Shown: positions 8,151-41,173 of the stretch, in pieces | Layout: each line of letters begins with the position of its first letter | Position numbering within the stretch: position 1 is the stretch's first letter | Assembly: GCF_051105105.1 (NCBI RefSeq) | Contig: NZ_CP185339.1 | Source of the DNA: Nannocystis pusilla | GTDB lineage: Bacteria; Myxococcota_A; Polyangia; Nannocystales; Nannocystaceae | Strand: one strand, 5' to 3' | DNA length: 64,000 nt | Translations under genes and position numbers: made by a program | Notes under the pieces: model-generated | Database searches by the model: none | What the model was told of the DNA's origin: nothing | What the model saw: only the letters and a program-made list of their open reading frames with translations

Positions 8151-9023
8151 TCAGGACTTCAGCGGCTCGCGCGGGGCGACGATGTCGCGCGCGAGGCCGA
8201 CGAGCGCGAGGCCGCGGATCATGAGGTAGGTGACATCGAGCTCGAACCACCGCCGGCCGTGGGCCGCGGCGCGCTGGTGGGCGTGGTGGTTGTTGTGCCA
8301 GCCCTCGCCGAAGGTCAAGAGGGCCACCCACCAATTGTTGCGCGAGTCGTCGCGGGTCTCGTAGTTGCGGTAGCCCCACCGGTGCGCGGCGGAGTTGACG
8401 AGCCAGGTCGCGTGATACGTGAAGACCAGGCGCACCGGGATGCCCCACACGACCCAGCTCCAGCCCTGGCCGAGCCACGCCTCGCCGACGACGTAGAGCA
8501 GGACGGCCAGGACGAACTGCGGGACGTAGTGCCAGCGGTCGAACCACCGCATCACCGGGTCGCGCAGGAGGTCGCGGGCGAACGCGCGCTCGGCGTCCTC
8601 GTCGGCGCGCATGAAGACCCACAACATGTGGGCCCACAACAGGCCGTGCCGCGGCGAGTGCGGGTCGTGCTCCTGGTCGGACCAGCGGTGGTGCAGGCGA
8701 TGCTTGCCGACCCACAGCACCGGGCTGCCCTGCCAGCTCAAGGTGCCGAGCAGGACGATGACGTACGTCAAAAACCGCGGGACCGCGAAGCTGCGGTGAC
8801 ACAGCAGGCGGTGATACCCGAGGCAGATGCCGACGCCGCCGGCGAGCCACCAGAGCGCGGCGGCGACGCCGAGGCCGCTCCACGAGAAGGTGAACGGGGC
8901 CGCGATGCAGACCAGGTGCATCAGCCCGGCGCCGATCACGTGACTCCACATGAGTCCGCCGACTGCGGGCGAGCTGGTGGCCGGCGGAGGGACGAGTTCT
9001 TCGACTTCGACTGCCGTGGACAA
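8151..9023 (-). CDS. Acyl-CoA delta-9 desaturase family fatty-acid desaturase (integral membrane).
   Basis: Three histidine boxes: HRLLCHRSF, HRLHHRWSD and HNNHHA. The alternative start MWSHVIG is at 8951. Confidence 0.9.
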   Translation of the reverse strand: MSTAVEVEELVPPPATSSPAVGGLMWSHVIGAGLMHLVCIAAPFTFSWSGLGVAAALWWLAGGVGICLGYHRLLCHRSFAVPRFLTYVIVLLGTLSWQGSPVLWVGKHRLHHRWSDQEHDPHSPRHGLLWAHMLWVFMRADEDAERAFARDLLRDPVMRWFDRWHYVPQFVLAVLLYVVGEAWLGQGWSWVVWGIPVRLVFTYHATWLVNSAAHRWGYRNYETRDDSRNNWWVALLTFGEGWHNNHHAHQRAAAHGRRWFELDVTYLMIRGLALVGLARDIVAPREPLKS

Positions 9024-11071: not shown

Positions 11072-11109
11072 GGACATGCTCCCGAGGACATGACCGATGC
11101 GGCATGTCC
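11072..11109. repeat. GGACATG x2 plus the hairpin GGACATG-n10-CATGTCC between convergent rpiA and lipoprotein stops.
   Basis: Read directly from the sequence. Same palindrome family. Confidence 0.65.
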
Positions 11110-11120
11110 CGAGGGGCGCG

Positions 11121-12053
11121 TCACTCGGGGTTGTCCTTGAGCCAGCGCTCGTAGGCCTTGAGGTCGACGTTGCAGACCTTGGCGTACTCGGCGGCGACGG
11201 TCTTGCGCTCGTAGGCGCGGTCGCTGGCGGCGCGGTTCTGCTGCTCGCGCAGGGCGTCGAGGGCCTCGAGCACGTTGCGGAAGTAGACCCACCGCTTGGG
11301 CTGGTCGGCGGTCGGCGGCGGGGTGCCGCCGCAGTAGCGGGCCAGCCAGCCGTGGGCCTCGGCGACCTTGCCCTGCTCGCGCAGGGCCGTGGGCATCGCC
11401 GGCAGGCAGCTCTGCAGCATCAGCGACACGCGGTCGGGGCCGCGGGCCTGCTCGGCGAGGCAGCGCTCGCTGAAGCGGGCGTGGTCGCCGACGAGGAAGG
11501 CGTCGCGCACGTAGGTGTCGCGCTCGAACTCCGAGCGCGACGGCTGGGCGCGGTCGCAGGCGTACATGTCGACGAAGATCTTCTGCGGGCCTTCGGGACA
11601 TGGCACTTCGTACAGGTCGATGACGTGGCCGTCCTTGTTGGCGCCGACGTTGCCGCGGCGGGCCTTCATGCCGCTGGGGATGTCGCCGTCGAACGGGCGG
11701 GTGCCGTCCTCGCACTCGGCGTCGGCGACCGCGACGTAGGAGCCGGTGGTGCCGCAGGCGAGCAGCGGGCGGTCCTTGGAGGAGCCGGGCGGCCCGAGCG
11801 GCGCGGCGTTCTCGGGGGCGCGCGCGTCGCCGATCCGCTCGCGCTCGTCGGTGCGACCGGGCCGCGGGCCCCCCGGGTTGGCGAAGGCGCCCGACGAGGT
11901 GGTGGCCGGATCGAGCGGCGAGGCGTCCGCCCCGGCGATGGGGGTGCCGAAGGCGCCCGACTCGGTCGCCGCGGGGGCCTTGGCCCGGCCCGACGTGGAG
12001 GTCTTGCAGGCGAGCAGGCAGGCGAGGGCGAGGAGCAGGGGCGGACGACGCAT
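11121..12053 (-). CDS. Hypothetical secreted lipoprotein.
   Basis: Signal plus lipobox MRRPPLLLALACLLAC. The upstream 56 codons of the track ORF are low-complexity and were rejected. Confidence 0.65.
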   Translation of the reverse strand: MRRPPLLLALACLLACKTSTSGRAKAPAATESGAFGTPIAGADASPLDPATTSSGAFANPGGPRPGRTDERERIGDARAPENAAPLGPPGSSKDRPLLACGTTGSYVAVADAECEDGTRPFDGDIPSGMKARRGNVGANKDGHVIDLYEVPCPEGPQKIFVDMYACDRAQPSRSEFERDTYVRDAFLVGDHARFSERCLAEQARGPDRVSLMLQSCLPAMPTALREQGKVAEAHGWLARYCGGTPPPTADQPKRWVYFRNVLEALDALREQQNRAASDRAYERKTVAAEYAKVCNVDLKAYERWLKDNPE

Positions 12054-12123
12054 GCGCGAGTCAACGTTAGCACGGGGCTCGCAGCCCGCGCTCGTGGCGT
12101 CGATCGACGTTGCCCCGGCGGCG

Positions 12124-12504
12124 TCAATGCGGGTGCTGCGGCAGGTCGTCGGCGATGTCGTAGTAGTCGCCCTTGTCGGCCACGTGGATGTGCATGGCCA
12201 GGCGGGCGTGCGTCGGCGCATCGAAGGCGCCCATGGCGACGGCGATCTTCGCGGCGAAGATCGGGTCCCAGAACAGCCACGAGCCGCAGGTCGAGCAGAA
12301 GCCGCGGCGCACTTTCTCCGACGAGCGGAACCAGGTCAGGCGGTCCTCGCCGCGGATCGTCAAGGCTTCGCGCGGGACGTTGGTCGAGGCCCAGTAATGG
12401 CCCGATTGTTTGCGGCACTGCGAGCAATGGCAGGCGTTCGGCGGGGGCAACGGGCCGGCGACCTCGAAGGTCACGGCGCCGCAGAGGCAAGATCCCTTGG
12501 GCAT
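12124..12504 (-). CDS. GFA family protein (glutathione-dependent formaldehyde-activating / CENP-V-like zinc protein).
   Basis: Cys ligand pattern CLCGAV...CHCSQCRKQSG...CSTCGSW over 126 aa. The start MPKGS was found by arithmetic from the stop. Confidence 0.8.
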   Translation of the reverse strand: MPKGSCLCGAVTFEVAGPLPPPNACHCSQCRKQSGHYWASTNVPREALTIRGEDRLTWFRSSEKVRRGFCSTCGSWLFWDPIFAAKIAVAMGAFDAPTHARLAMHIHVADKGDYYDIADDLPQHPH

Positions 12505-12536
12505 GGCGCTCCTGTTCGCGGCGATGGTACCAGCGG

Positions 12537-14624
<2,088 letters not shown>

Positions 14625-14828
14625 GGCCCAGGATACGCCGGGCTCGCGCGCGGGCCCAGGGGCGGCCGCGAGGGGGCGGGCGCGGCGAGGCAGCGCGAGC
14701 CTCGATCCACGTTGCAGGGGGTGTCGATGCGTCACCGGCCGTATCGGCGGACCTGTGTCCGCGTCGCGGACATCGAGGTGTCGATGCAGGTGGGAGTGAC
14801 GGTCGTCGCGTCGATTGCGCGGCTGGTC

Positions 14829-15485
14829 ATGCGGGCCTCGTTTTCCTATGTTCCGCGCCGCGTGACCCTCCGCGATTTCATCCCCCCATGCATCGCTCTG
14901 GCGGCGTGCCTGAGCCTGGCCTGCTCCGACGACAAGGACCCGCTCGACTCGGTGACCAGCCCGACGGCGACGACGACGAACCCGAGCAACGGTTCGAACG
15001 CGAGCAACGCCTCCAACGCGTCCAACCCCGGCAACAGCACCGACGGCACCGACAGCACCGATCCCGTCGACAGCACCGACGGCACGACGGCGACCGACAC
15101 TGGCGTCGACGAGACGACCGGGCCGACCACGGGCGAGCCGACCGCCGGCACGACCGTGGCCGAGACGACCGCGGCCGAGACGACGAGCACGAGCGAGCCG
15201 CCGCCGACCGACGGGCCCGGAGTGCTGCCCGGCGAGGACGGCATGCAGGCGTTCTGTCGCCGCTACAAGGAGTGCGGCGGGACCTACTACGGCGACCAGC
15301 AGGAGTGCCTCGACGCGACCTACGACTACTGGGGCAGCTGCCCGTCGCGCAAGGCGGCGCTCGACGAGTTCGGCGCCTGCATGTCGGAGCTCGACTGCGG
15401 CGAGTGGAACCCCGACGCCTACAACCCGGGCAGCACCCCGTGCGCCGAGCAGTGGGGCGGGGTCCAGTCGGCCGAGCCGTGCTGA
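14829..15485 (+). CDS. Small secreted lipoprotein with an Asn/Ser/Thr-rich linker and a Cys-rich C-terminal domain.
   Basis: Lipobox IALAACLSLAC. Contains NASNASNAS repeats. The C-terminus has 8 Cys. 218 aa. Confidence 0.6.
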   Translation: MRASFSYVPRRVTLRDFIPPCIALAACLSLACSDDKDPLDSVTSPTATTTNPSNGSNASNASNASNPGNSTDGTDSTDPVDSTDGTTATDTGVDETTGPTTGEPTAGTTVAETTAAETTSTSEPPPTDGPGVLPGEDGMQAFCRRYKECGGTYYGDQQECLDATYDYWGSCPSRKAALDEFGACMSELDCGEWNPDAYNPGSTPCAEQWGGVQSAEPC

Positions 15486-15494
15486 AGGACTGAA

Positions 15495-15548
15495 GGGACA
15501 TGTCCCCTGAGACCGGTGCTCAGGGGCATGGCTCCGGGGACATGTCCG
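15495..15548. repeat. GGGACATGTCCC (a perfect 12-bp palindrome at 15495-15506), the hairpin CCCTGAG-n7-CTCAGGG, and GGGGACATGTCC at 15537-15548.
   Basis: Read directly from the sequence. Lies between the convergent lipoprotein and methyltransferase genes. Confidence 0.7.
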
Positions 15549-16795
15549 ATGCGTCAGCCTCGATCCGGAAGTAGCGGAAGCCGCCGCCGCCGGTCCAGCC
15601 GGCCGCCGCGGTGACGCCGCTGGGATCGCGCCCGTCGACGACCGCGCGCAGGCGCGGGGCCACGAGGGTGTCGCAGTGCTCGCCGCGCTCGACGAGGATC
15701 CAGCGCCGCCGCAGCTTGTGGGCGACGGCGCCGGTGGTGCCCGAGCCGGCGTAGACGTTGAGGACCCAGTCGCCCGGGCGCGTCGAGAGGCTCGAGCACG
15801 CGGCGCAGCAGGGCCTCGGGCTTCTTGCCCTTGGGGAAGGCGACGCCGCCCTCGTTGTGCAGGTTGTTGGACAGCAGGTCGTCCCAGATGGTGGTGAGCG
15901 GCTCGCCGGCGACCCGCTGGCCGTCGATGAGCTTGAGCTTGGCGGCGTAGAAGAGGATCCGCTCGCCGCGGACGAAGTAGAAGTCGTCGTGGTCGTCGCG
16001 CCCTAACCGGAGGACGACGTCGGGCTCGGCCTTGGAGCGGTCGATCATGGCCCGCGCGGCCGCGCTGACGCCGTTGTAGTCGGGCCGCGCGAGGCGGACG
16101 ACGGCGTCGGCGTGGGCGAGCACGAATTCGTCGAGGCGCTCCGGCTCGGCCCGCGCCAGCCGCTGGGCCGCCCGCTCGCCCAGGCCGCAGGCGTCGGCGA
16201 AGGCGCGCATGAGCGTGACGAGCCGCCATTCGGCGTGCGGCGCGGGCCGATTGACGATGAACTGGGCGTACCGCGGGTCGCGCTCGCGGGCGGTGTACAG
16301 CCGCTGCGGGGCCCAGCGCGCGCGGTCCTTGCAGTACACGAGGACGAAGTTGGAGGTCGAGACGCAGCCGGGGTTTATCGCCTTGTGGCCGGTCGGCGCG
16401 CCCTGCTTGAAGGTGACGACCGAGGCGCGGTTGGCCCGGCCGAAGATGTCGTCGAGCAGGACGATCAGGTAGCCGAGCTCGTTGTCGTCGATGTGGACGA
16501 ACAGGGTGCCGTCGGCGGCCAGCAGGTCGCGCAGGACGGTGAGCCGGGCGCGCATGTCGGCCAGCCAGCGCGCGTGCTCGATGCCGTCGTCGTAGTGGGC
16601 GAAGGCGCGGCCGGTGTTGTACGGCGGGTCGATGTAGACGCAGCGGATCTTGCCGGCGAACTCGGGCTCCAGCGCGCGCAGGGCCGCGAGGTTGTCGCCG
16701 CGGATCAGGCGGTTGTCGTAATGGTCGCCCGCCACCTCGGGGCCGGCCGCGCGGTGGGACAGCGCGAGGGCCTCGACGAGGGGGCGCGGATCCAC
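15520..16795 (-). CDS. Site-specific DNA methyltransferase, beta-class (N6-adenine/N4-cytosine), orphan, carrying an apparent +1-nt frameshift near its C-terminus.
   Basis: N-terminal NRLIRGDNLAALRAL and motif IV IRCVYIDPPYNTG. After LLRRVLE the frame changes at plus coordinates 15786-15790 into PGDWVLNVYAGSGTTGAVAHKLRRRWI (motif I). No restriction enzyme gene lies next to it. Confidence 0.7.
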
Positions 16796-17444: not shown

Positions 17445-18515
17445 GTGTCGCCCGTGTTCGCGCTGATCGCCCTCTACGGGCTGGTGTTCGTGCTCCACCT
17501 GATCGTGCCGGCCCGCCGCGTGAGCGGCTACGTGCGCGACGAGGCCAGCGGCGCGCCGCTCCGCTACCGCCTCAACGGGGTGCGGGTGATGGCGCTGACG
17601 GTGGCGCTGTACTTCGTGGCGGGGGCGACCGGCCTCGTGCCGTGGGACTGGCTGTACGTCCACCGGGCAGAGACTCTGGCGACCGCGTGCGGGCTGGGGC
17701 TCCTGTTCACCCTGGCGATCGTGCTGCCGGCGGCGCCGCGGCGCGGGCTCCTGGCCGACCTGTACCTCGGGCGGCTGGCCAACCCGCAATGGCTGGAGGG
17801 CCACATCGACGCCAAGATGTTCTTGTATTTGATCGGGGCGGTGATGCTGCAGCTGAACCTGCTGTCGTTCGCCGCCCACCACCTGCTGCTGTACCCGAAC
17901 GATCCGTCGCCGGGGGTGCTCCTGCACGTGGCGCTGTTCTCGTTCTTCCTGTGGGAGTACCTCAACTTCGAAGAGGTCCACCTCTACACCTACGACTTCG
18001 TGGCCGAGCGCGTCGGCTTCAAGCTCGGGTGGGGCTGTCTGACGTTCTACCCGTTCTTCTACGCGGTCGGGCTGTGGACGACGGCCGCGCTGCCGAACCC
18101 GCACACGCCGGCGCCGCTGCTGGGCCTGTGCGCGCTGCTGTTCTTCACCGGCTGGATGCTGGCCCGCGGGGCCAATATGCAGAAGTTCTGGTTCAAGACG
18201 CAGCCCGAGAAATTGGCGTTCGGCACCATCAAGCCGGAGGTGCTGAGCGACGGCGAGAAGCAGATCCTGGTGAACGGCTTCTGGGGGCTGTCGCGGCACA
18301 TCAACTATCTGGGCGAGATCACGATGGCGACGGCGCTGGCGCTGTCGCTCGGTCACCCGGGCGAGCTGGGGCCGTGGCTGTACCCGCTGTATTACCTGGT
18401 GCTGCTGGTGCCGCGGCAGATCGACGACGACCGCCGCTGCCGCGCGAAGTACGGGGCGCTGTGGCAGCAATACGAGCGACGGGTGCGCTGGCGAATCGTG
18501 CCCGGGATCTATTGA
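17445..18515 (+). CDS. ERG4/ERG24-family sterol reductase (C14 / C24(28) / 7-DHC reductase homologue).
   Basis: A multi-TM protein with the family signature GFWGLSRHINYLGE and the C-terminal DDDRRCRAKYGALWQQYERRVRWRIVPGIY. Compare DHCR7 with RCASKYG...W..Y...VPYRLLPGIF. Confidence 0.8.
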   Translation: MSPVFALIALYGLVFVLHLIVPARRVSGYVRDEASGAPLRYRLNGVRVMALTVALYFVAGATGLVPWDWLYVHRAETLATACGLGLLFTLAIVLPAAPRRGLLADLYLGRLANPQWLEGHIDAKMFLYLIGAVMLQLNLLSFAAHHLLLYPNDPSPGVLLHVALFSFFLWEYLNFEEVHLYTYDFVAERVGFKLGWGCLTFYPFFYAVGLWTTAALPNPHTPAPLLGLCALLFFTGWMLARGANMQKFWFKTQPEKLAFGTIKPEVLSDGEKQILVNGFWGLSRHINYLGEITMATALALSLGHPGELGPWLYPLYYLVLLVPRQIDDDRRCRAKYGALWQQYERRVRWRIVPGIY

Positions 18516-18691: not shown

Positions 18692-19225
18692 TCAGGGGGT
18701 CTGCAGCTGGCCCATGAGCCAGTAAGGGCCGACGCAGGCGGCGTCGAGCGGCGCCTTCAGCTGCTTGCGCAACGCGTCGGTCAGCCGGACCTGGCCGCCG
18801 CCGGTGCGCAGTGGCTCGCCGACGCGGGCGACGACCTTGCCGGTGCTGTCGACGATCTCGAGGCGGTCGCCGGTGCGACGCGCGCCGTAACCCGGCTGCC
18901 AGATCAGCAGGTGGCCTGGCTGCTTGCCGTCGGGGCTGACGCGCAGGCAACCGGACTGCTCGATCAAGGTGCCCGAGAGCAGGGCGTCCATGAACGCGTT
19001 GCTGGTCTCGCGCAGCTCCGGCAGGGCGGGGATCGGTCCGGCCGATTCGAGGGGCTGCGCGGCGGGCTCGGGCGCGGCTGCGGGCGCGGGGGCGGACGGG
19101 GGTGCGGGAGCCGGCGCGGACGTGGGCGCGGGCGCGGGCGCGGGCGCGGCGGGCGTGGCGGGCGTCGGCGCTGCTGTATCGGGGTGGCAAGCGAAGAGGG
19201 ACAAGCAAAGAGCGAACAGGCGCAT
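18692..19225 (-). CDS. Hypothetical lipoprotein with a Pro/Ala-rich linker.
   Basis: Signal plus lipobox MRLFALCLSLFAC followed by (PA)n. The upstream His/Cys-rich track extension was not accepted. Confidence 0.6.
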   Translation of the reverse strand: MRLFALCLSLFACHPDTAAPTPATPAAPAPAPAPTSAPAPAPPSAPAPAAAPEPAAQPLESAGPIPALPELRETSNAFMDALLSGTLIEQSGCLRVSPDGKQPGHLLIWQPGYGARRTGDRLEIVDSTGKVVARVGEPLRTGGGQVRLTDALRKQLKAPLDAACVGPYWLMGQLQTP

Positions 19226-19758
19226 CGCCGACCGCACGCCGGCGATGCGCCCGGGCTTACACCCGTCGGTGCAGCAGCACTCGATCGCAGGCTCGTCAGG
19301 GGCCCACGGATGTTCCACCTCGGGCTTCGCCACGTGACGGGCGAGGTCGCGGTGGTGGTCCCAATGTTCGCAGGGAAGATTGGCATGAGGGTGGAATGGG
19401 CAATTTTTCGAGGAGCTCTTTCGGCGGTGTGAAGGCATCGATTGCGGCGCGGCGAGCGGCCGGTGATCTTGCGCTGGCCGGTGACGGAGGCGCGACGGTT
19501 GACGCGCGAGCGACGAGCACCGCTGTGGAGCGGGGCCGAGCCCTGAAGGGCTTCGCGCGGGGCTCGGGCCGGGGAACCCCGCGCGTGGGCCCGGGTGCTC
19601 GGGTGGAGAGCGTGTGTCGTGACGAGGTTCGGCGGCCTCGTCACGGGGCGATGCGCAGGTCGCCGTCGGGGCGCAGGCAGGTCGTCAGGCGGAGCTGACG
19701 ATCGCGGCGGCGCGGCGCGAATACGTCGGCTTGACGCCCGCGATCGGGCCTGGATAGC

Positions 19759-21303
19759 GTGACCGACGGGATGGAAAATTCCGTGAAAAGCCTCGTATTT
19801 GGCCGCTTCGCGCGGCTCTGTCTGCTCCTGCCGGTGAGCGCTTGCGTATGGACGCCGAACAGCCGCACGTCGCACGAATCGAGCGCCGCGATCTCGATGC
19901 AGGGCTATTCGGGCGGGCCGGGATCGACGGTGCGGATCCTGGCGAGGAATTGGGACACCGGGGCCTTCGACGAGGTGGCGACGACGATCGGGAGCACCAC
20001 CGCCTCGTTCACCGACCCGGCGCTCTACTCGTGGGCGAAGTCGTTGACGCCGGCGGCCCAGTACTGGCGGCCGACGCAGGCCGGTTGCTCGGCGGGGCGC
20101 GCCGAGCTGCGCGCGATGATCGATGACGACCCACTGAAGACGTTCACGACCCCGGCCGGCCAGTGCGCGTTCGATCGCGTCCTCGGCGGCGAGCACCCGG
20201 CTTCGGCCGGCGACGCGTGCTCGGACGGCGACGAGGTGATCCTGTTCGACAACAACGGCACCTGCGGGACGGCCGAGACGGGCGGGCTGACGACGGTGGA
20301 GGGACCGTTCACGGGGCCATACAACGGCGTGTCGGTGACGTGGGAGGTCGTCAGCTATCCGGTGCAGGGCAACACGATCTACGGGCTTGTCTGTCGCCCG
20401 AGCGCGGCCGGGGCGCATCCGGTCCAGATCTTCAACCACGGCGGGTGGTTCGGCCTCGGCTGGGGCGGCGAGCCGGAGGGCTGCCTGAAGTCGGCGGCGA
20501 AGGGATGGGTCGTGGCGATGTCGACCTATCGCGGCGAGCGGCTGTACCTCGGGCCAGGTTACGAGTGGGTCTCGGGCGGCAGCGTCGAGCTGTGCAACGG
20601 CGAGGTGACCAACGTCCTGCGGCTGACCGATCTGGTGCTGGCCAAGTCGTACGCGGATACTTCGAAGGTGCTGATGCACGGGCTGTCGCACGGCGGCTGC
20701 ATCACGACGCGGGCGGTGCAGCGCGGGGCGCCGGTGCAGGCGGCGATCGACGTCGCCGGGCCGAGCGAGTGGGCGTCGCTGCACGCGCTGCTCGGCGGCT
20801 GGCTGGTCGGCGAGCTGCCGACCGATCCGCCGACGACGCCGTTCCCCGACTTGATGGAGGATTGGGTCGGCGACCCGGCGTCGGTGCCCCACGCGTACGA
20901 GTGGCGCTCGAGCAAGTTCGTCGCCGAGGACCTGGCGGTGCGCGCCGACGTCAAGTACCTGCGCATGCAAGGAACGGCCGACACGATCGTGCCGCCGGGC
21001 CACGCGTGCAAGCTCATGAAGACGGCGTTCGGCGCCTACGGCAGCCAGAACTGGCACTTTACCAGCACCGCTGCGGTCACCACGACTGCGCCGGTCGGCT
21101 GCACGGCCACCGACGCGAGCCTGTGGTGGCAGAGCGCCGCCAAGCCGACGACGAGCTGGCCGGGCAACCATTACGTGTTCGTCTACGACGCGCTGCCCCA
21201 CGCGGTGGTGCCGGGCGACGGCACGCCGGTCGCGGTGGTGAACGCGTTCGTGGCCGACTACAACAACTTCGTCAACGCGCTCGGCTGGGGCGTGGTGTAC
21301 TGA
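19759..21303 (+). CDS. Secreted alpha/beta-hydrolase (S9 peptidase / dienelactone-hydrolase-like).
   Basis: Signal LCLLLPVSAC. The nucleophile elbow is GLSHGG. 514 aa. Confidence 0.7.
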   Translation: MTDGMENSVKSLVFGRFARLCLLLPVSACVWTPNSRTSHESSAAISMQGYSGGPGSTVRILARNWDTGAFDEVATTIGSTTASFTDPALYSWAKSLTPAAQYWRPTQAGCSAGRAELRAMIDDDPLKTFTTPAGQCAFDRVLGGEHPASAGDACSDGDEVILFDNNGTCGTAETGGLTTVEGPFTGPYNGVSVTWEVVSYPVQGNTIYGLVCRPSAAGAHPVQIFNHGGWFGLGWGGEPEGCLKSAAKGWVVAMSTYRGERLYLGPGYEWVSGGSVELCNGEVTNVLRLTDLVLAKSYADTSKVLMHGLSHGGCITTRAVQRGAPVQAAIDVAGPSEWASLHALLGGWLVGELPTDPPTTPFPDLMEDWVGDPASVPHAYEWRSSKFVAEDLAVRADVKYLRMQGTADTIVPPGHACKLMKTAFGAYGSQNWHFTSTAAVTTTAPVGCTATDASLWWQSAAKPTTSWPGNHYVFVYDALPHAVVPGDGTPVAVVNAFVADYNNFVNALGWGVVY

Positions 21304-21309
21304 TTCGCG

Positions 21310-22113
21310 TCAGTCGCGGGCGTGGAGGCGGGCGGTCTGCGAGCCCATGAGGGCGACGGCTCGCCGGCGCGGGAACAGGCGCCCGAGGACGAACGCGGCC
21401 AGCTTGTTGAGGCCGCCGGGGACGGCGCTCGGCGGGCCGCCCAGGGCCTGCAGGGCCTCGGCGACGACGGCGTCGGGCGTCATGGCGCGCGGGCCGTCGG
21501 GGCCGCTCGAGCGCTCGAAGCCGGGGGTCCGCGTGGCGCCGGCGCAGCAGACCAGGACGTCGACGCCGCGCGGGCCGAGCTCGTACCACAGCGCCTCGCC
21601 GAGCGAGAGGTTGAACGCCTTGGTGGCGCCGTAGGCGGCGACCAGCGGCGAGCCCCAGAAGGCGGTGAGCGAGGACATGAGGAGCAGGCCGCCGCGGCCG
21701 CGCTGCACGAGGCGCTCGCCGAACACGTGGGCGGCGATCAGCGGGCCGCGGCAATTGACGTCGACGATCTTGAGCTTGTCGGCCAGCGGGACGTCGAGGA
21801 ACGGGCCGATCCGCGAGAGCGCGGCGTTGTAGACGCAGAGGCCAACGTCGAGGCCGTCGCTGACGCGCGCGAGCTGCTCGGCGAGGTCGGGGGCCGCGAG
21901 GTCGAGGGCGGCGGTGCGGACGTCGACGCGCGCCCGCAGCGGGGCGGCGACGGCCTCGAGGGCGTCAGCCCGGCGCGCGAGCAGGAGGAGGTTGAGGCCG
22001 CGGTCGGCGAGGCCGCGCGCGAAGGCGGCGCCGAGGCCCTCGGAGGCGCCGGCGACGACCGCCCAGGGGCCGTACTTGTGGACGAAGGCGGAGCGGTCGG
22101 AGGAGCTGGTCAC
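21310..22113 (-). CDS. SDR-family short-chain dehydrogenase/reductase.
   Basis: Glycine motif VAGASEGLG and the Y..K of YGATKAF. A GTG start at 22113 was chosen. The track M at 22287 is really GTG and lies in a palindrome-rich leader. Confidence 0.7.
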   Translation of the reverse strand: MTSSSDRSAFVHKYGPWAVVAGASEGLGAAFARGLADRGLNLLLLARRADALEAVAAPLRARVDVRTAALDLAAPDLAEQLARVSDGLDVGLCVYNAALSRIGPFLDVPLADKLKIVDVNCRGPLIAAHVFGERLVQRGRGGLLLMSSLTAFWGSPLVAAYGATKAFNLSLGEALWYELGPRGVDVLVCCAGATRTPGFERSSGPDGPRAMTPDAVVAEALQALGGPPSAVPGGLNKLAAFVLGRLFPRRRAVALMGSQTARLHARD

Positions 22114-35946: not shown

Positions 35947-37095
35947 TCACGGCTTGCGGCCGGTCTTGTAGCGCGGGTTGCTGTCGTGCCACTCGAACGC
36001 GCCGCCCATCCACGCCCGCAGGGCGCGCAGGAACCGCTGCAGCTCGACGCTGGGGACGGCCTGCAGCTCGCGGTGGCTGGCCTCGAAGTCGCGGACGAGG
36101 TCGTTGTGCAGCTGGACGGTGACCTCGGTCGCCTCGTCGATCGAGCAGCCGCGATCGGCCTTGACCTGCAGCACCATGTTGCACGGCGGCTTCGCGTCCT
36201 CGAGGTCCTTGGCCACCGAATAGAGGTCGTTGACGAGGACGACCGTCGTGCCGGCCAGGAACGCGGCGCGGCGGATCCGCGCGTCGTAGAAGAGCTCGGC
36301 GGGCAGGCGGTAGCCGCCGATGACGTCGCACAGCGTCATCGAGGTGTAAAAGCTGTCGTGCTGGCGCGCGGCCAGGTACTTCCACGCCGGCGGGTACTCG
36401 CCGGTGTGGCGCCACGCCGCGTAGGCGCTCCACGACACGAACATGGCGAAGGTCGCGTAGCAGGTGCGCTGGACCTGCTCGTGCGTGGCGTAGCGGCCCA
36501 TGTGCTCGAGGCCCGAGCGCAGGGCGACGAGCACGCGCTCGGCGTCGATCGCCTGCTCGAGCGGGACGCTGAACTCGCCGGCGCGCGGCAGCGGATCCAT
36601 CGCGGACATCGCCAGGACGAGGCGCGGCGGCAGCTGCTCCGGGACCGCCCCGAGCGCGCTGTCGTCGGCGTAGTAGTCGTCGGCGGCCCACCACGCGGCG
36701 TTCATCTTGGCGCCGATGAGCAGCCGATCCGGATCGTCGCAGTCGGCGTGGGTGAGCATCACCAGCCGGCCGAACCGGGTCTTGCGGATCTTGACGATCT
36801 CGTCGTCGTCGAAGCCGCAGTCCTTGGCCCAGGCGGCGAGCCGCTCGTCGACCTCGTCGGCCAGCGGCTCGTTGATGCGCTCGGTGATCGGGCAGTACAG
36901 CGGCGACGCGCTGCCGTCGCCCCAGCGCCGCCAGGCGTACGCGGGATCGAGGGCCGGCTGCGGCGGGTCGAGGTCGCCGGCGCGGGCCCGATTCAGGAGC
37001 TGCGCGAGGCGAGCGGCGTGCGTCCCCAGGCCGGTCGGTCCGGCGAGGAGGGCGGATACATCGTGCGGGTCCGTCGTGCGCTTGGCCTCAGTCAT
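35947..37095 (-). CDS. Class I terpene cyclase, 2-methylisoborneol-synthase type.
   Basis: Mg-binding motifs AADDYYADD (compare DDCYCED) and VNDLYSVAKDLE (compare NDLYSYTKE). The N-terminal approximately 70 aa are Pro/Ala-rich and low-complexity. It is the last gene of the encapsulin operon. Confidence 0.8.
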   Translation of the reverse strand: MTEAKRTTDPHDVSALLAGPTGLGTHAARLAQLLNRARAGDLDPPQPALDPAYAWRRWGDGSASPLYCPITERINEPLADEVDERLAAWAKDCGFDDDEIVKIRKTRFGRLVMLTHADCDDPDRLLIGAKMNAAWWAADDYYADDSALGAVPEQLPPRLVLAMSAMDPLPRAGEFSVPLEQAIDAERVLVALRSGLEHMGRYATHEQVQRTCYATFAMFVSWSAYAAWRHTGEYPPAWKYLAARQHDSFYTSMTLCDVIGGYRLPAELFYDARIRRAAFLAGTTVVLVNDLYSVAKDLEDAKPPCNMVLQVKADRGCSIDEATEVTVQLHNDLVRDFEASHRELQAVPSVELQRFLRALRAWMGGAFEWHDSNPRYKTGRKP

Positions 37096-37186
37096 CGCTC
37101 GCCTCTGTTGCAGCGGCCGCCTGAATCCGGCGGAAAATTGCGCGGTGCGGGAGGTATGGTCATACCCCCCGCCGGTGCCGTCATTC

Positions 37187-38053
37187 TCAGCGGACGATGC
37201 GGTCCGCGACGATCAGGAGGTAGTGGAAGCTGCCCTCCTTGTAGGCCCGCAGGAACGGATCCTCGACGCCGGTGGCGACCGAGCAGCGGGTCCGGAGCTC
37301 CCAGTACGGGATCGTGTCGGGGGTCAGGTCGGTGACCTCGATCGGCACCAGGTTGTTGGCCGCCATCGCCTTGAAGTACTCGCTGCGCGGGTGGATGTTG
37401 CAGATGTACTTGGCGTCGATCTCGCTGACGGCGCGCGAGCGGCCGCCGGTGATGTCGTTGTAGCAGCCGGTGATGCAGACGTAGCGCCCGCCGTCCTTCA
37501 GCAGCCGCGAGAACTCGCCGTACAGCTTGAACAGGTCGACGTACATCGTGGTCTCGTTGGTCCAGATGGCGTCGATCGAGCCGGTCTCGAAGCCGGTGTC
37601 GAGCATGTTGCGGAAGTGGTACTTCAGCTTGTCAGTGTACCCGCGCTTGGCGGCCTGCTCGTTGGCGAAGCCGACCTGGTACTCCGAGATCGACACGCCG
37701 TCGACCTGGCACTTGAACTTCTCGTAGGCCATGAGGCTGGTGCCGCCGCGGCCGGAGCCGGCGTCGAGCAGGCGGCTCTCGGGCTTGATCGGGCCGAGCT
37801 TCCCCAGCAGGTGCACCGCCTGCGCGTGCTCGAGGCGGTGCAGCTCGCGGATGATGGCGTCGTCGCGCGTGGCCTCGGGCTGCTCCAGCACCGACCAATT
37901 GACGGCGCCGATCCCGTAGTGGTGGTGGTAGTAGCCGTCGACGTGGCCGAGCAGCAGATTGACGGGGTCGTTCTGGTTGGTGTTCCAGTAGTTGGCGACC
38001 GACTTCTGGTATTCGCTGCGCAGGACGCTATTGGCCGTGGTGGGCGTGTTCAT
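37187..38053 (-). CDS. Geranyl diphosphate 2-C-methyltransferase (SAM-dependent; 2-MIB pathway).
   Basis: Near-collinear with Streptomyces GPPMT (SCO7701). Shared segments: YWN...PVNLLLGHVDGYYHHHYGIG, LDAGSGRGG, TNETTMYVDL, GGRYVCITGCYN, CNIHPRSEYFKAMAANNLVP, LTPDTIPYWELR, KEGSFHYLLIVADRI. Confidence 0.9.
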   Translation of the reverse strand: MNTPTTANSVLRSEYQKSVANYWNTNQNDPVNLLLGHVDGYYHHHYGIGAVNWSVLEQPEATRDDAIIRELHRLEHAQAVHLLGKLGPIKPESRLLDAGSGRGGTSLMAYEKFKCQVDGVSISEYQVGFANEQAAKRGYTDKLKYHFRNMLDTGFETGSIDAIWTNETTMYVDLFKLYGEFSRLLKDGGRYVCITGCYNDITGGRSRAVSEIDAKYICNIHPRSEYFKAMAANNLVPIEVTDLTPDTIPYWELRTRCSVATGVEDPFLRAYKEGSFHYLLIVADRIVR

Positions 38054-38122
38054 GATCGTTGGTTCTCTTTCGTTGCACTGTGACGAGGCGCCCCAAGGTG
38101 GCGCCTGCCTCGGCGAGGGCGC

Positions 38123-39526
38123 TCAGCGCCCGATCTCGATGTTTTCCAGGATCCCGAGCGCGTCCGGGATCAGGACCGCTGCGGAGTAGTAGGTGCTGAC
38201 GAGGTACGAGGCGACCGCCTTCTCGTTGGTGCCCATCCTGCGGACGGACAGGCCGGGTTCGCGCTCGTCGGGGAGGCCGCTGCGATACAGGCCGATGACG
38301 CCCTGGGCGTCCTGGCCGACGCGCATGGCGAGGATCGAGCTGGTCTGCGTCTCGGAGATCGGAATCTTGTCGCACGGGAGGATCGGCACGCCGCGCCAGC
38401 CGGCGACGATGGACCCCTCGTATTCGACGTTCGGCGGATCGAGCCGGCGGCGGGTGCACTCGCGGCGGAAGGCGGCGATCGTCCGCGGGTGGGCCAGGAA
38501 AAACCGGGTCTTGCGGCGCCGGCACAGCAGCTCGTCCATGTCGTCGGGCGTCGGCGGGCCGCTGCGAGTGTTGATCCGCTGCTTGTAATCGGCGTTGTGA
38601 AGCAGGCCGAAGTCGCGGTTGTTGACGAGCTCGTACTCCTGCCGCTCGCGCAGGGCGTCGATGGTCAGGCGCAGCTGCTCCTCGAGCTGGTCCATCGGAT
38701 CGTTGAACAGATCCGACACCCGCGAATGGACCTGCAGGATGGTCTGCGCGAGGCTCAATTCGTACTCGCGCGGCGAGGCCTCGTAATCGACGAAGGTGCC
38801 CGGCAAGGTGACCTCGCCGTGGTGGCCGGCGGTCAAGCGGATGGCGGCCTGGCCGTGCTTGTCCTGCGGGGTCTTCAGCAGCTCCTTGTAGCGCTCGACG
38901 TGGGCGCGCAGGGCGCCCGAGCGGCCGATCAGCTCCTCGAACACCGCCTGCGGCAGCGCGAGGACGATGCACGGCGTGACCGCCTTGACGCTGTAGTCCC
39001 AGGCGTCGTCGTCCTGCACGAGCGCCTGATCGCCGAAGTGGGCGCCGTCGGCGATCACCTCGAGCAGGGCCTCCTCGCCGTAAGGACCCTGGCCGAGCTT
39101 GTGGGCCTTGCCGTGGACCAGCAGGTACACATGATCGGCCGGCTTGCCGCGCTCGGCGATGAGCTGCCCCGGCTTGAACTCGGACTGCACGAAACGGCTG
39201 GCGAGGTGCGACAGCACCTCGTCGTCGGAAAATCCGCGCAGGAGCGGCAGCTCGGTGAGCTCGGCCGGGATCACCTGAGCCTTGGCGCCGATGTTGGTAA
39301 ACTCGATCCGTCCGTCCCCGACCGCGACGTTCATGCGGCGATTGACGCGGAACGTGCCACCGGTGACGTCGACCCAGGGCAGCGAGCGGAGCAGCCAGCG
39401 AGGCGTGCGCCCCTGGTTCTGCGGCGGGGTCTTGGTGGTCGTCGCCAGCTGCCGCGCGGCCCGGGTCCCGAGGCTCATCGGCTGCTGTCCGTCGCCGTCA
39501 CGGCCGGACTTCTCGAACATCGACAT
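38123..39526 (-). CDS. Family 2B encapsulin shell protein (an HK97-fold capsid-like C-terminal part with an inserted N-terminal CAP-type cNMP-binding domain), copy 2.
   Basis: 467 aa. cNMP-binding segment [38 protein letters not shown]. It is paralogous to the upstream gene. Such proteins were historically annotated as cnb in mib operons. A GGAGA Shine-Dalgarno sequence sits 8 nt upstream. Confidence 0.8.
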
Positions 39527-39607
39527 GTCATCGTCTCCAGGCAGGCATCACGGACGGTGGCGCCCCGGGCCGCGAGGACCGGAGCGCCGATGGGCGCGAC
39601 AGGGCCG

Positions 39608-41005
39608 TCAGTCGGCGCGGCCGATCTCGACGCTCTCGAGGATGCCGAGGGCGTCCGGGATCTGGACGGCGGCCGAGTAATAGAGGCTGACCAGGTACGA
39701 GATGATCGCCTTCTCGTTGATGCCCATGAAGCGCACCGACAGGCTCGGCTCGATCTCGTCGGGGATGCCCTTGTGGTGCAGGCCGATGACGCCCTGGTTC
39801 TTCTCGCCGACGCGCATCAGCAGGATCGAGGTGGTGCGCGTGTCGGAGATCGGGATCTTGTTGCACGGGAAGATCGGCACGCCGCGCCACGAGGGGACGT
39901 GATGGCCGCCCAGATCGATCGGCGTCGGGTAGATGCCCGCGCGGTTGCACTCGTGGCCGAACGCCGCGATGGTCCGCGGGTGGGCGAGGAAGAAAGCCGG
40001 CTCCTTCCACACCAGCGCCAGCAGGTTGTCCATGTCGTCCGGCGTCGGCGGGCCGCTGCGGGTGTGAATCCGCTGCTTGAGGTCGGCGTTGTGAAGCAGG
40101 CCGAACTCGTGGTCGTTGATGAGCTCGTGCTCCTGGCGCTCCTTCAGCGCCTCGACGGTCAGGCGCAGCTGCTCCTGCGTCTGATTCATCGGGTCGTTGA
40201 ACAGGTCGGCCACGCGCGTGTGGACCTGCAGGACGGTCTGGGCGACGCTGAGCTCGAACTCCCGCGGCGAGGTCTCGTAGTCGACGAAGGTGCCCGGCAG
40301 CACGGGCTCGCCCGAGTGGCCGGCGGCGACCTCGATCGCGGCCTGGCCGCTGTTGTCCTGCTTCTTCTGCGAGCGCGCCTTGAACTCCTCGACGTGCTTG
40401 CGCAGCGACGGGTGCTGGGCGACCAGCTCCTCGAAGGACGCCTGCGACAGGGTGAGGACGGTGCCGGCGGTCACTGCCTTGGCGGTGAACGTCCAGTAGT
40501 CCTGGGATTCGAGGATCGCCTGGTACGAGTAATGATCGCCGTCGGCCAGGGTCTCCAGGATGCTCTCGTCGCCGTACTTGCCGGTGCCGATCTTGTTGAC
40601 CTTGCCGTGGGCGATGAGGACCATCTCGTTGGCCTCGTTGCCCTTCTGCGTCAGGACGTCGCCCGCCTTGAACTCCTTCTGGACGAAGCGACCGGCGAGG
40701 ACACCCAGCACCTCGAGGTCTTCGTAGCCGCGGAACAGCGGCAGCTCGGTCAGCTCCAGCGGCACGACCTGGATCTTGGCGCCGGTGTTGTAGAAGGTGA
40801 CGCGGCCGTCGCCGACGGCGTAGCTCAGGCGACGATTGAGGCGGAAGACGCCGTTGACGTGCACCCAGGGCAACAATTTGAGCAGCCAGCGGGACGAGAT
40901 TCCCTGCATCTGCGGCGGGGACTTCGTCGTGGTGGCGAGCTGGCGCGCTGCAGCCGTCGAGAGGCTGGTCTGCTGATCATTTCCCGGCTTTCCTGCGATC
41001 GACAT
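39608..41005 (-). CDS. Family 2B encapsulin shell protein, copy 1.
   Basis: About 465 aa. The start was set at MSIAGKPG (AAGGA Shine-Dalgarno sequence 7 nt upstream), which aligns with MSMFEKSG of copy 2. cNMP-binding segment [40 protein letters not shown]. Confidence 0.8.
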
Positions 41006-41173
41006 GACTATCCTTTTCACGGGCAGCTCTGCTGCCGTTTCCAAAATTCTGCTCGACAGGGGGCCGTGTCGGCGAAATTCGGCCCTTCGCGGTTCGAGCT
41101 CGCGGGCGGAGGTTACGCTCCGTCATCGCGAGGCGTCAAGACAAATTCGGGGAACGAAGATTAATTAAACGAT

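What the first reader, a model, noticed from the sequence alone, without database searches (positions are those of the whole stretch)
17445..18515. ERG4/ERG24-type sterol reductase in a bacterium
The protein carries the diagnostic C-terminal signature of the eukaryotic sterol C14 / C24(28) / 7-dehydrocholesterol reductases (GFWGLSRHINYLGE ... DDDRRCRAKYGALWQQYERRVRWRIVPGIY). It also has the expected polytopic membrane topology. Bacterial sterol synthesis is rare and concentrated in a few myxobacteria, methanotrophs and planctomycetes. This gene suggests that the organism modifies sterols. No oxidosqualene cyclase is seen in this window.
Basis: partly seen in the sequence, partly recalled or inferred. 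Interest (0 to 1): 0.55.

Follow-up and report, generated by a model that had tools for sequence, protein, structure and literature searches.

The report
Atypical sterol-reductase paralog with SDR partner
This is a real membrane reductase gene of the sterol-reductase (ERG4/ERG24) family in Nannocystis, a myxobacterium long known to make sterols, but it belongs to an uncharacterised side branch that lacks the proposed catalytic tyrosine and is usually found next to a gene resembling a steroid dehydrogenase.

Summary
The ORF (17445-18515, +, 356 aa) is real and is an exact RefSeq protein of Nannocystis pusilla. It is a clear ERG4/ERG24 member: Pfam 158 bits against a cut-off of 27, and an AlphaFold model that matches the methanotroph sterol reductase MaSR1 at TM-score 0.87.

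The host genus is a classic sterol producer, so a sterol-family reductase here is not surprising.

The gene is not the canonical sterol reductase, however. The Nannocystis gene that best matches human LBR, human DHCR7 and yeast ERG4 lies on a different contig. The window protein falls in a separate clade (100% bootstrap) from C14-reductases, DHCR7 and ERG4. All 120 close relatives have Phe for the proposed catalytic Tyr241 and Glu for Asp363, and lack the H-R-x-x-R-D motif. The NADPH-pocket residues are kept.

In 56 of 80 loci across several phyla this short clade sits beside an orthologous SDR. That SDR's best solved homolog is Collinsella 7beta-hydroxysteroid dehydrogenase. Canonical MaSR1-type genes instead sit beside an ERG2-like sterol isomerase gene.

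Most likely it is one half of a two-gene SDR-plus-reductase module that saturates a double bond in a sterol-like lipid. The substrate is unknown.

The parts
17445..18515 (+). Short-clade ERG4/ERG24-fold membrane reductase (356 aa, nine predicted TM helices, starts at MaSR1 residue 71). NADPH-pocket residues: N244, K247, R284, H285, N287, Y288, R324, D328, Y336, Y343, R350. Clade-specific residues: F168, K193, E291, P323.
21310..22113 (-). Partner classical SDR (adh_short; GASEGLG cofactor motif, YxxxK). The start is uncertain: the longest ORF reaches 22287, but alignment to the 270-aa gene called in N. pusilla Na p20 points to a start near 22113. Its orthologs lie next to the reductase gene in 56 of 80 loci. 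Its best solved homolog is the 7beta-hydroxysteroid dehydrogenase 5FYD/5GT9.

Best explanation
The gene encodes an NADPH-dependent, membrane-embedded C=C reductase with the ERG4/ERG24 (MaSR1) fold. It belongs to an uncharacterised clade that is distinct from the sterol C14-, C7- and C24(28)-reductases.

Shown here: family and fold membership; conservation of the NADPH pocket; separation from all characterised orthogroups; invariant replacement of the proposed proton-donor Tyr by Phe and of Asp363 by Glu; and a conserved, co-inherited pairing with one specific SDR.

Inferred: the SDR and the reductase act on the same lipid. The SDR would interconvert a hydroxyl and a ketone. The reductase would deliver hydride from NADPH to a double bond conjugated to that carbonyl (enone-type chemistry). 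This is how 3beta-HSD plus steroid 5alpha-reductase work, and how DHRSX plus SRD5A3 work (the second pair is my own knowledge). It would make a tyrosine proton donor unnecessary.

Further inferred, and weaker: the substrate is a sterol or steroid-like lipid. In Nannocystis the module would then be a tailoring step rather than core sterol synthesis, for example on the way to the saturated 7-oxo-cholestanol core of the nannosterols. The canonical paralog elsewhere in the genome would do the C14 reduction.
For: Family and fold: Pfam ERG4_ERG24 158 bits; PDB 4quv E = 1.8e-34; AF2 pLDDT 96.3 with Foldseek TMq 0.87-0.88 to 4QUV.

Cofactor site: MaSR1 N316, K319, R356, H357, N359, Y360, R395, D399, Y407, Y414 and R421 are invariant in 120/120 short-clade proteins. 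N359 and R395 are experimentally tied to NADPH binding through their LBR equivalents N547 and R583.

Separate clade: the split from C14R/FK/MaSR1, DHCR7 and ERG4 has 100% NJ bootstrap. F241/K266/E363/P394 contrast with Y241/D363/[H,W,N]394-R-x-x-R398 in every characterised group. NYxGE occurs in 120/120 short-clade and 0/240 canonical proteins.

A different, canonical paralog exists in Nannocystis.

SDR partner: present in 56/80 loci, and in 44/62 loci with at least 1.5 kb on both flanks. In 20 loci it is directly upstream on the same strand, commonly with a gap under 100 nt. It is the only enriched function among 150 pooled neighbours. SDR and reductase distances correlate at r = 0.85, with 0/2000 Mantel permutations reaching that value.

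Steroid flavour of the SDR: its best PDB hit is 5fyd/5gt9 at E = 5.6e-32, about seven orders better than the next SDR. That entry is Collinsella 7beta-HSDH. The top NCBIfam resemblance is also 7betaHSDH.

Contrast with the canonical clade: MaSR1 and a Myxococcales long-clade gene lie directly downstream of an ERG2_Sigma1R gene.

Open slot in Nannocystis: Akone et al. leave the nannosterol tailoring enzymes unidentified and invoke an unknown C-7 hydroxysteroid dehydrogenase.

Weak support: the Salpingoeca relative is fused to an Epimerase/3Beta_HSD-like domain.
Against: There is no biochemical evidence for any member of the clade.

The 'catalytic' roles of Tyr241 and Asp363 rest on modelling and docking, not on mutagenesis that I could read (the MaSR1 paper itself is not held).

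The SDR is far below the equivalog cut-off for 7betaHSDH (114.7 against 300 bits). SDR substrate specificity cannot be read from about 35% identity.

In Nannocystis the two genes are convergent, not co-transcribed. In this window they are separated by two inserted genes.

About 29% of loci with adequate flanks lack the SDR, including a whole Myxococcaceae/Archangiaceae subgroup.

The mirror-tree correlation partly reflects shared species phylogeny.

The module never lies beside sterol genes. It also occurs in MAGs of lineages not known to make sterols, which fits a non-sterol substrate equally well.

The wider F/K/E/P relatives have no SDR neighbour.
Confidence: 0.5

Rival explanations
1. It is the ordinary sterol C-14 reductase (ERG24/FK/MaSR1-type) of de novo sterol synthesis in Nannocystis, reducing the Delta14 bond left by CYP51.
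For: Nannocystis makes C14-demethylated, C14-saturated sterols and so needs this activity. Sources name the N. exedens ortholog 'delta14-sterol reductase'. MaSR1 is the best solved match by sequence and by fold. Plant FK is also a short C14 reductase (369 aa), so a short N-terminus is not disqualifying.
Against: Another Nannocystis gene on a different contig is the best match to LBR, DHCR7 and ERG4. The clade is separated from all C14 reductases with 100% bootstrap. Tyr241 is Phe, Asp363 is Glu and H-R-x-x-R is lost in 120/120 members, whereas all C14R, DHCR7 and ERG4 sequences examined keep them. The conserved partner is an SDR, not the ERG2-like gene found next to MaSR1-type genes.
Confidence: 0.12
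2. It is a second biosynthetic sterol-nucleus or side-chain reductase (DHCR7-like or ERG4-like in function) that acts alone in the Nannocystis pathway; the neighbouring SDR is incidental.
For: Akone et al. propose a route through cholesterol that needs both C14 and C7 reductions, yet found only one gene for both. This gene is a second family member in the genome. Coxiella Stmp1 shows that bacterial family members can act on sterols outside a complete pathway.
Against: It does not group with DHCR7 or ERG4 (each 100% monophyletic elsewhere in the tree) and lacks their shared residues. The SDR adjacency is too widespread and too co-inherited to be incidental.
Confidence: 0.1
3. The SDR + reductase pair acts on a non-sterol lipid. 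One option is saturation of an allylic isoprenoid alcohol through an aldehyde (dolichol-type, like DHRSX + SRD5A3). Another is the keto-reduction and enoyl-reduction steps of a fatty-acyl or polyketide-like chain (like KAR + TECR). Its presence in a sterol producer would then be coincidental.
For: None of roughly 75 loci has a sterol gene beside the module. It occurs in Pseudomonadales, Alphaproteobacteria, Bacteroidota and Gemmatimonadales MAGs that are not known sterol producers. The second-best NCBIfam resemblance of the SDR is mycolate reductase, which acts on a lipid keto group. SDR + polytopic reductase pairs on non-sterol lipids exist in eukaryotes (my own knowledge).
Against: Every characterised ERG4/ERG24-fold enzyme acts on sterols. 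The SDR's clearest characterised relative is a steroid dehydrogenase. Most hosts are Myxococcota, described as a phylum of sterol producers (abstract listed). Whether the other hosts carry OSC could not be checked.
Confidence: 0.25
4. It is a catalytically dead or non-enzymatic relic, for example a sterol-binding membrane protein.
For: The proposed proton-donor Tyr is lost.
Against: The protein is strongly conserved across phyla (about 55-94% identity among relatives outside the Nannocystis cluster), and every NADPH-pocket residue is invariant in 120/120 members. The replacing residues (F168, K193, E291, P323) are themselves essentially invariant. That pattern indicates a changed active site, not a decayed one.
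Confidence: 0.03

Closest known systems
MaSR1 (Methylotuvimicrobium alcaliphilum Delta14-sterol reductase, PDB 4QUV) and the ERG24/TM7SF2/LBR/FK C14-reductases
   Same: Same Pfam family and same fold (TMq 0.87-0.88, rmsd 2.6 A). Same NADPH-pocket residues. 31% identity over residues 35-356. Polytopic membrane enzyme.
   Different: Lacks MaSR1's N-terminal ~70 residues, which include its first hydrophobic segment. F168 replaces Tyr241, E291 replaces Asp363, P323 replaces His394, there is no Arg398, and K193 replaces Met266; all are invariant within the clade. It forms a separate clade (100% bootstrap). Its conserved partner gene is an SDR, not an ERG2-like isomerase.
DHCR7 (including the bacterial Waddlia/Coxiella-type) and fungal ERG4
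   Same: Same superfamily and the same C-terminal cofactor-binding region.
   Different: DHCR7 and ERG4 each form their own 100%-supported clades on the canonical side of the tree. Both keep Tyr241, Asp363 and H/N-R-x-x-R-D.
Steroid 5alpha-reductases (SRD5A1-3, DET2) working with a 3beta-HSD or DHRSX-type SDR
   Same: A polytopic NADPH-dependent lipid C=C reductase working alongside an SDR. The 'N-Y/F-x-G-E' form of the cofactor motif, with Glu, is the SRD5A/DUF1295 form (the SRD5A motif is from my own knowledge). SRD5A2 is the next-best fold match after MaSR1. These enzymes reduce a carbonyl-conjugated double bond without a Tyr proton donor at the MaSR1 position.
   Different: There is no Pfam Steroid_dh hit, and only a distant structural match (TMq 0.36). 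SRD5A2 has 7 TM helices and MaSR1 has 10; this protein has 9 predicted. The resemblance is in proposed mechanism, not in family membership.
Coxiella burnetii Stmp1 (CBU1206) and CBU1158
   Same: Bacterial ERG4/ERG24-family proteins that sit outside any sterol gene cluster. Stmp1 is active on sterols when expressed in yeast.
   Different: The literature describes them as ERG4-like and DHCR7-like acquisitions from eukaryotes, that is, the canonical side of the family. I did not have their sequences to place in the tree.
Collinsella aerofaciens 7beta-hydroxysteroid dehydrogenase (5FYD/5GT9), for the partner SDR
   Same: It is the best solved homolog over nearly the full length (E = 5.6e-32) and also the top NCBIfam model.
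   Different: The SDR scores 114.7 bits against an equivalog cut-off of 300, so it is not a member of that family. The substrate and the position it oxidises are unknown.

Membership tests
ERG4/ERG24 superfamily (Pfam PF01222) | Profile match above the curated gathering score over most of the protein | tested here: met
   158.2 bits against a cut-off of 27; residues 9-356 match profile positions 76-432 of 432.
ERG4/ERG24 superfamily (Pfam PF01222) | MaSR1-type polytopic fold | tested here: met
   AF2 model with pLDDT 96.3 and pTM 0.93. Foldseek to 4QUV: TMq 0.87-0.88, rmsd 2.6 A, probability 1.00.
ERG4/ERG24 superfamily (Pfam PF01222) | Conserved NADPH-pocket residues (MaSR1 N316, K319, R356, N359, Y360, R395, D399, Y407, Y414) | tested here: met
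   All are present in the window protein and invariant in 120/120 close relatives. N359 and R395 are linked to NADPH binding through LBR mutants.
Sterol C-14 reductase orthogroup (ERG24/TM7SF2/LBR, FK, MaSR1) | Groups phylogenetically with characterised C14 reductases | tested here: not met
   NJ tree on 358 columns with 200 bootstraps: the window clade is separated from MaSR1, plant FK, Naegleria C14R, DHCR7 and ERG4 with 100% support.
Sterol C-14 reductase orthogroup (ERG24/TM7SF2/LBR, FK, MaSR1) | Proposed catalytic pair Tyr241 / Asp363 (MaSR1 numbering) | tested here: not met
   F168 and E291 in the window protein. Phe and Glu in 120/120 short-clade proteins; Tyr and Asp in 113/113 MaSR1-like proteins and in all FK, Naegleria, DHCR7 and ERG4 sequences examined.
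Sterol C-14 reductase orthogroup (ERG24/TM7SF2/LBR, FK, MaSR1) | C-terminal sterol-reductase signature [LIVM](2)-[HQ]-R-x(2)-R-D-x(3)-C-x(2)-K-Y-G-x(2)-W-x(2)-Y (PROSITE pattern quoted from memory) | tested here: not met
   The window protein reads LV-P-R-QI-D-D-DRR-C-RA-KYG. The pattern matches 0/120 short-clade proteins, against 92/120 MaSR1-like and 93/120 ERG4/DHCR7 proteins.
Sterol C-14 reductase orthogroup (ERG24/TM7SF2/LBR, FK, MaSR1) | It is the genome's best reciprocal match to eukaryotic sterol reductases | tested here: not met
   In N. pusilla Na p20 that gene is K7C98_12900 on JAIRAU010000012. This gene's ortholog is on JAIRAU010000047. I could not retrieve the K7C98_12900 sequence itself.
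Sterol C-14 reductase orthogroup (ERG24/TM7SF2/LBR, FK, MaSR1) | Delta14-reductase activity on a Delta8,14-sterol | not testable with these tools
   Needs heterologous expression with lipid GC-MS.
DHCR7 / ERG4 orthogroups | Groups with named DHCR7 or ERG4 proteins and shares their signature residues | tested here: not met
   DHCR7 and ERG4 each form 100%-supported clades on the other side of the tree. Both keep Y241, D363 and H/N-R-x-x-R-D.
DUF1295 (PF06966) | Best-scoring family over the length of the protein | tested here: not met
   20.4 bits, exactly at the cut-off, over residues 228-298 only. That is far below ERG4_ERG24.
Isoprenylcysteine carboxyl methyltransferase (ICMT/Ste14) | Profile or fold match | tested here: not met
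   No Pfam ICMT hit at E <= 1. ICMT structures match only distantly (TMq 0.42-0.43, E about 0.2-0.3). The JGI 'Ste14' labels on relatives appear to be mis-annotations.
Steroid 5alpha-reductase family (SRD5A/DET2/TECR) | Profile match or close fold match | tested here: not met
   No Pfam hit. 7BW1 matches at TMq 0.36 with rmsd 9.4 A. I propose only a mechanistic analogy.
7beta-hydroxysteroid dehydrogenase (NCBIfam NF050024), for the partner SDR | Score above the equivalog cut-off | tested here: not met
   114.7 bits against a cut-off of 300. It is the closest characterised relative, not a family assignment.

The most novel reading that the evidence does not exclude
The short ERG4/ERG24 clade and its 7beta-HSDH-like SDR form a previously unrecognised two-enzyme sterol 'enone saturation' module. 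The SDR would oxidise a ring hydroxyl (for example at C-7 or C-3) to a ketone. The reductase would then saturate the conjugated ring double bond. In Nannocystis this would produce the saturated 7-oxo-cholestanol core of the nannosterols. In other bacteria it would act on oxysterols. This would be a new reaction type for the ERG4/ERG24 fold, with eukaryotic relatives in chytrids, Corallochytrium and choanoflagellates.
Probability: 0.15. Interest if true: 0.7.

Novelty: new variant of a known kind. Interest (0 to 1): 0.42.

Why it matters
The host is Nannocystis, sterol genes in this genus are published, and the protein is already in RefSeq.

The useful results are narrower:

1. Automatic names such as 'delta14-sterol reductase', 'ergosterol biosynthesis protein' and 'Ste14' are being applied to a large clade: at least 120 clusters at 64% identity or more, with relatives in several phyla and in some eukaryotes. 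This clade is not an ortholog of any characterised sterol reductase, and both proposed catalytic residues are changed. Surveys that count 'ERG24 homologs' to infer bacterial sterol pathways or to interpret sterane biomarkers could be misled.

2. The clade has a conserved SDR partner that resembles a steroid dehydrogenase. That gives a concrete two-gene candidate to test in the E. coli sterol-expression systems already used for bacterial sterol enzymes. It could fill one of the unassigned tailoring steps in nannosterol biosynthesis, or reveal a new lipid-saturation reaction.

Tried and rejected
1. My first orthology clustering of neighbours across the 80 loci found only housekeeping synteny: TrmD-, RimM- and Prs-like genes and a GH1-like gene in one Myxococcaceae/Archangiaceae subgroup. 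It missed the SDR, probably because chained overlapping ORFs merged it into one giant cluster. A direct BLAST of the window's neighbours recovered it.

2. The 2026 J Bacteriol '8,14-sterol reductase' paper turned out to describe an NTF2-family enzyme, so it is unrelated.

3. The MaSR1 structure paper could not be read. The residue roles come from secondary sources.

4. The canonical Nannocystis paralog (K7C98_12900) could not be retrieved.

5. The supplement of Hoshino & Gaucher is not held. I therefore could not confirm which homologs they called 'ERG24' and 'ERG27 analog'. I judged from their text and from the absence of sterol synteny around the short clade that they mean the canonical clade.

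6. I checked whether the SDR pairing extends to the wider F/K/E/P relatives. It does not, for P0269, P0278 and P0294.

7. NCBIfam gives no model for the reductase.

8. Two literature searches for prior characterisation of the clade or the pairing found nothing relevant in the held library (one search failed on syntax).

The bait sequences themselves were not analysed.
Full report
OBSERVATION. The translation contains both quoted motifs. The frame is clearly coding, with codon-position GC of 0.67/0.42/0.95 in a window of about 70-75% GC. The entire sequence is an exact match to RefSeq WP_434427299.1 / XWX14872.1, 'ergosterol biosynthesis protein [Nannocystis pusilla]'. Pfam ERG4_ERG24 matches at 158.2 bits (cut-off 27, E = 3.9e-46) over residues 9-356. 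DUF1295 reaches only 20.4 bits over residues 228-298, and there is no ICMT hit. NCBIfam has no model for it. The best solved homolog is the Methylotuvimicrobium Delta14-sterol reductase MaSR1 (4quv, E = 1.8e-34).

HOST AND SURROUNDINGS. A scan of one genome per species found the protein at 93-98% identity in six Nannocystis species, with extended DNA synteny to the window. Nannocystis is the classic sterol-producing myxobacterium, making lathosterol, cholest-8-enol and the nannosterols. The literature lists SQMO, OSC, CYP51, SdmA-C, EBP and more for N. exedens and N. pusilla. I scanned the main ORFs across the window with Pfam and found no sterol gene. The immediate neighbours are a DNA methylase, a small Nannocystis-specific lipoprotein-like ORF, an unannotated ORF, an S9 peptidase and an SDR.

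IT IS NOT THE CANONICAL PARALOG. Akone et al. searched N. pusilla Na p20 with human LBR, human DHCR7 and yeast ERG4. All three returned one gene, K7C98_12900, on contig JAIRAU010000012. The Na p20 ortholog of the window gene (P0128, MBZ5714107.1) is on contig JAIRAU010000047. So Nannocystis has at least two family members, and this one is not the closest to the eukaryotic enzymes. The window protein is only 31% identical to MaSR1. MaSR1 in turn heads its own large family of about 400-430 aa, with more than 60% identity among the listed members, which also occurs in Myxococcales.

A SEPARATE CLADE WITH A CHANGED ACTIVE SITE. The top 120 homologs are all about 340-382 aa and 64-94% identical. 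I aligned them with 113 MaSR1-like proteins. The NADPH-pocket residues are invariant in both sets: MaSR1 N316, K319, R356, H357, N359, Y360, R395, D399, Y407, Y414, R421. There are also absolute family switches:
- Tyr241 becomes Phe (120/120).
- Asp363 becomes Glu (120/120).
- Met266 becomes Lys (120/120).
- His394 becomes Pro (119/120).
- Arg398 is lost.

Tyr241 and Asp363 are the residues proposed as catalytic in MaSR1/ERG24 modelling. N359 and R395 are linked to NADPH binding through LBR disease mutants.

An exhaustive search of 1.84 billion representatives found 1682 relatives. These include a layer of 380-785 aa proteins that are 41-50% identical to the window protein. Some of them are eukaryotic: the chytrids Podochytrium and Borealophlyctis, Corallochytrium, and Salpingoeca. 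Where named at all, they are called only 'ERG4/ERG24 family protein'.

I anchored the canonical side with plant FK-type and Naegleria Delta14-reductases. I added genuine S. cerevisiae and K. lactis Erg4 and animal and Waddlia DHCR7, retrieved using memory-typed bait. Every characterised group keeps Y241, D363 and [H/W/N]394-R-x-x-R398-D. The window clade has F/K/E/P instead. A neighbour-joining tree (358 columns, 200 bootstraps) separates the window clade from all characterised reductases with 100% support. DHCR7 and ERG4 are each 100% monophyletic on the other side. Simple motif counts agree. NYxGE occurs in 120/120 short-clade and 0/240 canonical proteins. The classical C-terminal sterol-reductase signature, as I recall the PROSITE pattern, matches 0/120 short-clade proteins against 92/120 and 93/120 canonical ones.

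FOLD. An AlphaFold2 model built on 88 sequences is very confident (pLDDT 96.3, pTM 0.93) and shows nine long helices. Foldseek places it on 4QUV with TMq 0.87-0.88 and rmsd 2.6 A. SRD5A2 and ICMT follow as distant matches. Residue 1 aligns with MaSR1 residue 71, so MaSR1's N-terminal ~70 residues, including its first hydrophobic segment, are absent. Plant FK is also short at 369 aa, so shortness alone does not argue against reductase activity.

A CONSERVED SDR PARTNER. My first clustering of neighbours missed it. A direct search then showed that the SDR encoded at about 21310-22113 (-) has orthologs (40-69% identity outside Nannocystis) beside the reductase gene in 56 of 80 loci. Among loci with at least 1.5 kb on both flanks the figure is 44 of 62, and in 29 of those the SDR is within 300 nt. 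The commonest arrangement is SDR directly upstream on the same strand, commonly with a gap under 100 nt. It occurs in Myxococcota, Gamma- and Alphaproteobacteria and Bacteroidota MAGs. In Nannocystis the two genes are convergent. In this window two extra genes lie between them, but in N. radixulma (L006) and a Myxococcales MAG (L008) they are 45-70 nt apart.

Among 150 pooled neighbour ORFs the only enriched Pfam function is adh_short (21 members). No OSC, P450, Rieske, ERG2 or other sterol gene appears. SDR and reductase pairwise distances correlate at r = 0.85, and none of 2000 Mantel permutations reaches that value. This shows co-inheritance, although shared species phylogeny contributes to it. 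The pairing is specific to the short family: three wider relatives have no SDR neighbour.

By contrast, MaSR1 in M. alcaliphilum and a long-clade gene in a Myxococcales MAG each lie directly downstream of an ERG2_Sigma1R-family gene. The two clades therefore keep different company.

WHAT THE SDR RESEMBLES. Its best solved homolog, over nearly the full length, is 5fyd/5gt9 (E = 5.6e-32, about seven orders better than the next SDR). That entry is Collinsella aerofaciens 7beta-hydroxysteroid dehydrogenase. The top NCBIfam model is also 7betaHSDH, but at 114.7 bits against a cut-off of 300, followed by mycolate reductase. This is the closest characterised relative, not a family assignment. The Salpingoeca relative of the reductase is fused to an Epimerase/3Beta_HSD-like domain. 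That is weak support and could be a gene-model artefact.

MECHANISM, AND WHAT IS INFERRED. Shown here: an ERG4/ERG24 fold with an intact NADPH site, a remodelled substrate side, and a co-inherited SDR. Inferred: the two enzymes act on one lipid. The SDR provides or removes a carbonyl next to a double bond, and the reductase adds hydride to the conjugated C=C. That chemistry does not need the tyrosine proton donor that canonical sterol reductases are thought to use on unactivated or diene double bonds. It is how SRD5A-type enzymes work with 3beta-HSD or DHRSX-type SDRs (my own knowledge). The NYxGE motif is also the SRD5A/DUF1295 form (my own knowledge).

A sterol-like substrate is plausible for four reasons. 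All characterised family members act on sterols. The SDR resembles a steroid dehydrogenase. Most hosts are Myxococcota. And Nannocystis makes nannosterols, which have a saturated cholestanol core with a C-7 ketone. Akone et al. leave the tailoring enzymes for that core unassigned and explicitly invoke an unknown C-7 hydroxysteroid dehydrogenase.

The sterol link is not shown, however. The module is never next to sterol genes, and it occurs in lineages not known to make sterols. A non-sterol lipid therefore remains a serious rival, which I put at about 0.25.

COMPARISON WITH KNOWN SYSTEMS AND NOVELTY. The protein is a member of the ERG4/ERG24 superfamily. It fails every test I could run for membership of the C14-reductase, DHCR7 or ERG4 orthogroups. 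The labels attached to relatives ('delta14-sterol reductase', 'ergosterol biosynthesis protein', 'DUF1295', 'Ste14') are automatic and mutually inconsistent. In the held literature I found no description of this clade or of the SDR pairing. The supplement of Hoshino & Gaucher, which might list these genes, is not held.

I rate the finding as a new variant of a known kind. The sub-structure beneath it is a moderately interesting, directly testable lead.

Noticed in passing
window 35947-41044 (- strand): This stretch holds a terpene synthase (Terpene_syn_C_2; 35947-37095), a SAM methyltransferase (37187-38053) and two tandem SrpI-like Family-2 encapsulin shell genes with cNMP-binding domains (38123-39526, 39608-41044). 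It looks like the encapsulin-associated methylated-monoterpene (2-methylisoborneol-type) clusters I know from actinomycetes and myxobacteria.
   Followed up: no
L082 4301-6284; L084 4392-6284; L085 2636-4612: The structurally solved sterol reductase MaSR1 and a Myxococcales member of its clade each lie 20-46 nt downstream of an ERG2_Sigma1R-family gene (sterol C-8 isomerase-like). This looks like a conserved two-gene sterol unit for the canonical clade.
   Followed up: partly
P0315 (Salpingoeca rosetta XP_004994740.1, 785 aa); P0310 (Borealophlyctis, 580 aa): Eukaryotic relatives of the window clade carry extra domains. The Salpingoeca protein has an Epimerase/3Beta_HSD-like domain C-terminal to a truncated ERG4_ERG24 domain. 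The chytrid protein has an N-terminal FUN14 domain. These may be real fusions or gene-model artefacts.
   Followed up: no
L087/L088 (P0278, 436 aa; JGI contig of 718 kb): A 'mid-length' relative of the clade sits among many ORFs with no Pfam hit, a DDB_G0273449-like gene and a CDP-alcohol phosphatidyltransferase gene. The context does not look bacterial; it could be a eukaryote or a giant virus.
   Followed up: no
window 11100-15500: This stretch has strong three-base GC periodicity (0.91-0.96 in one codon position), so it is coding. But the long ORFs listed there (11097-15485 +, 12537-16229 -) are not in that frame, and the + ORF (the only one scanned) has no Pfam hit. The true gene or genes here are unresolved. 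The region is 90-95% conserved in other Nannocystis genomes.
   Followed up: partly
window 15554-16795 (- strand): The N6_N4 DNA-methylase ORF ends in an Arg/Pro-rich tail of about 70 aa that does not look like protein. Only about 341 of its 413 aa align to the Nannocystis orthologs. This suggests a frameshift or read-through at the 3' end.
   Followed up: no
window 18692-21303: Two genes, an unannotated 248-aa ORF (-) and an S9-family peptidase (+), lie between the reductase and its SDR partner here. The peptidase is also present in L002 and L005, and the 248-aa ORF in L001 and L002. Both are absent in L006 and L008, where the pair is 45-70 nt apart. This indicates a lineage-specific insertion into the module.
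   Followed up: partly
window 8151-9023 (- strand): A membrane fatty-acid desaturase-family gene lies 8.4 kb upstream of the reductase (Pfam FA_desaturase 80 bits; DesA-family 90 bits against a cut-off of 400). Within the ±8 kb flank searched it recurred only in L005; in most Nannocystis loci its position falls outside that flank.
   Followed up: no
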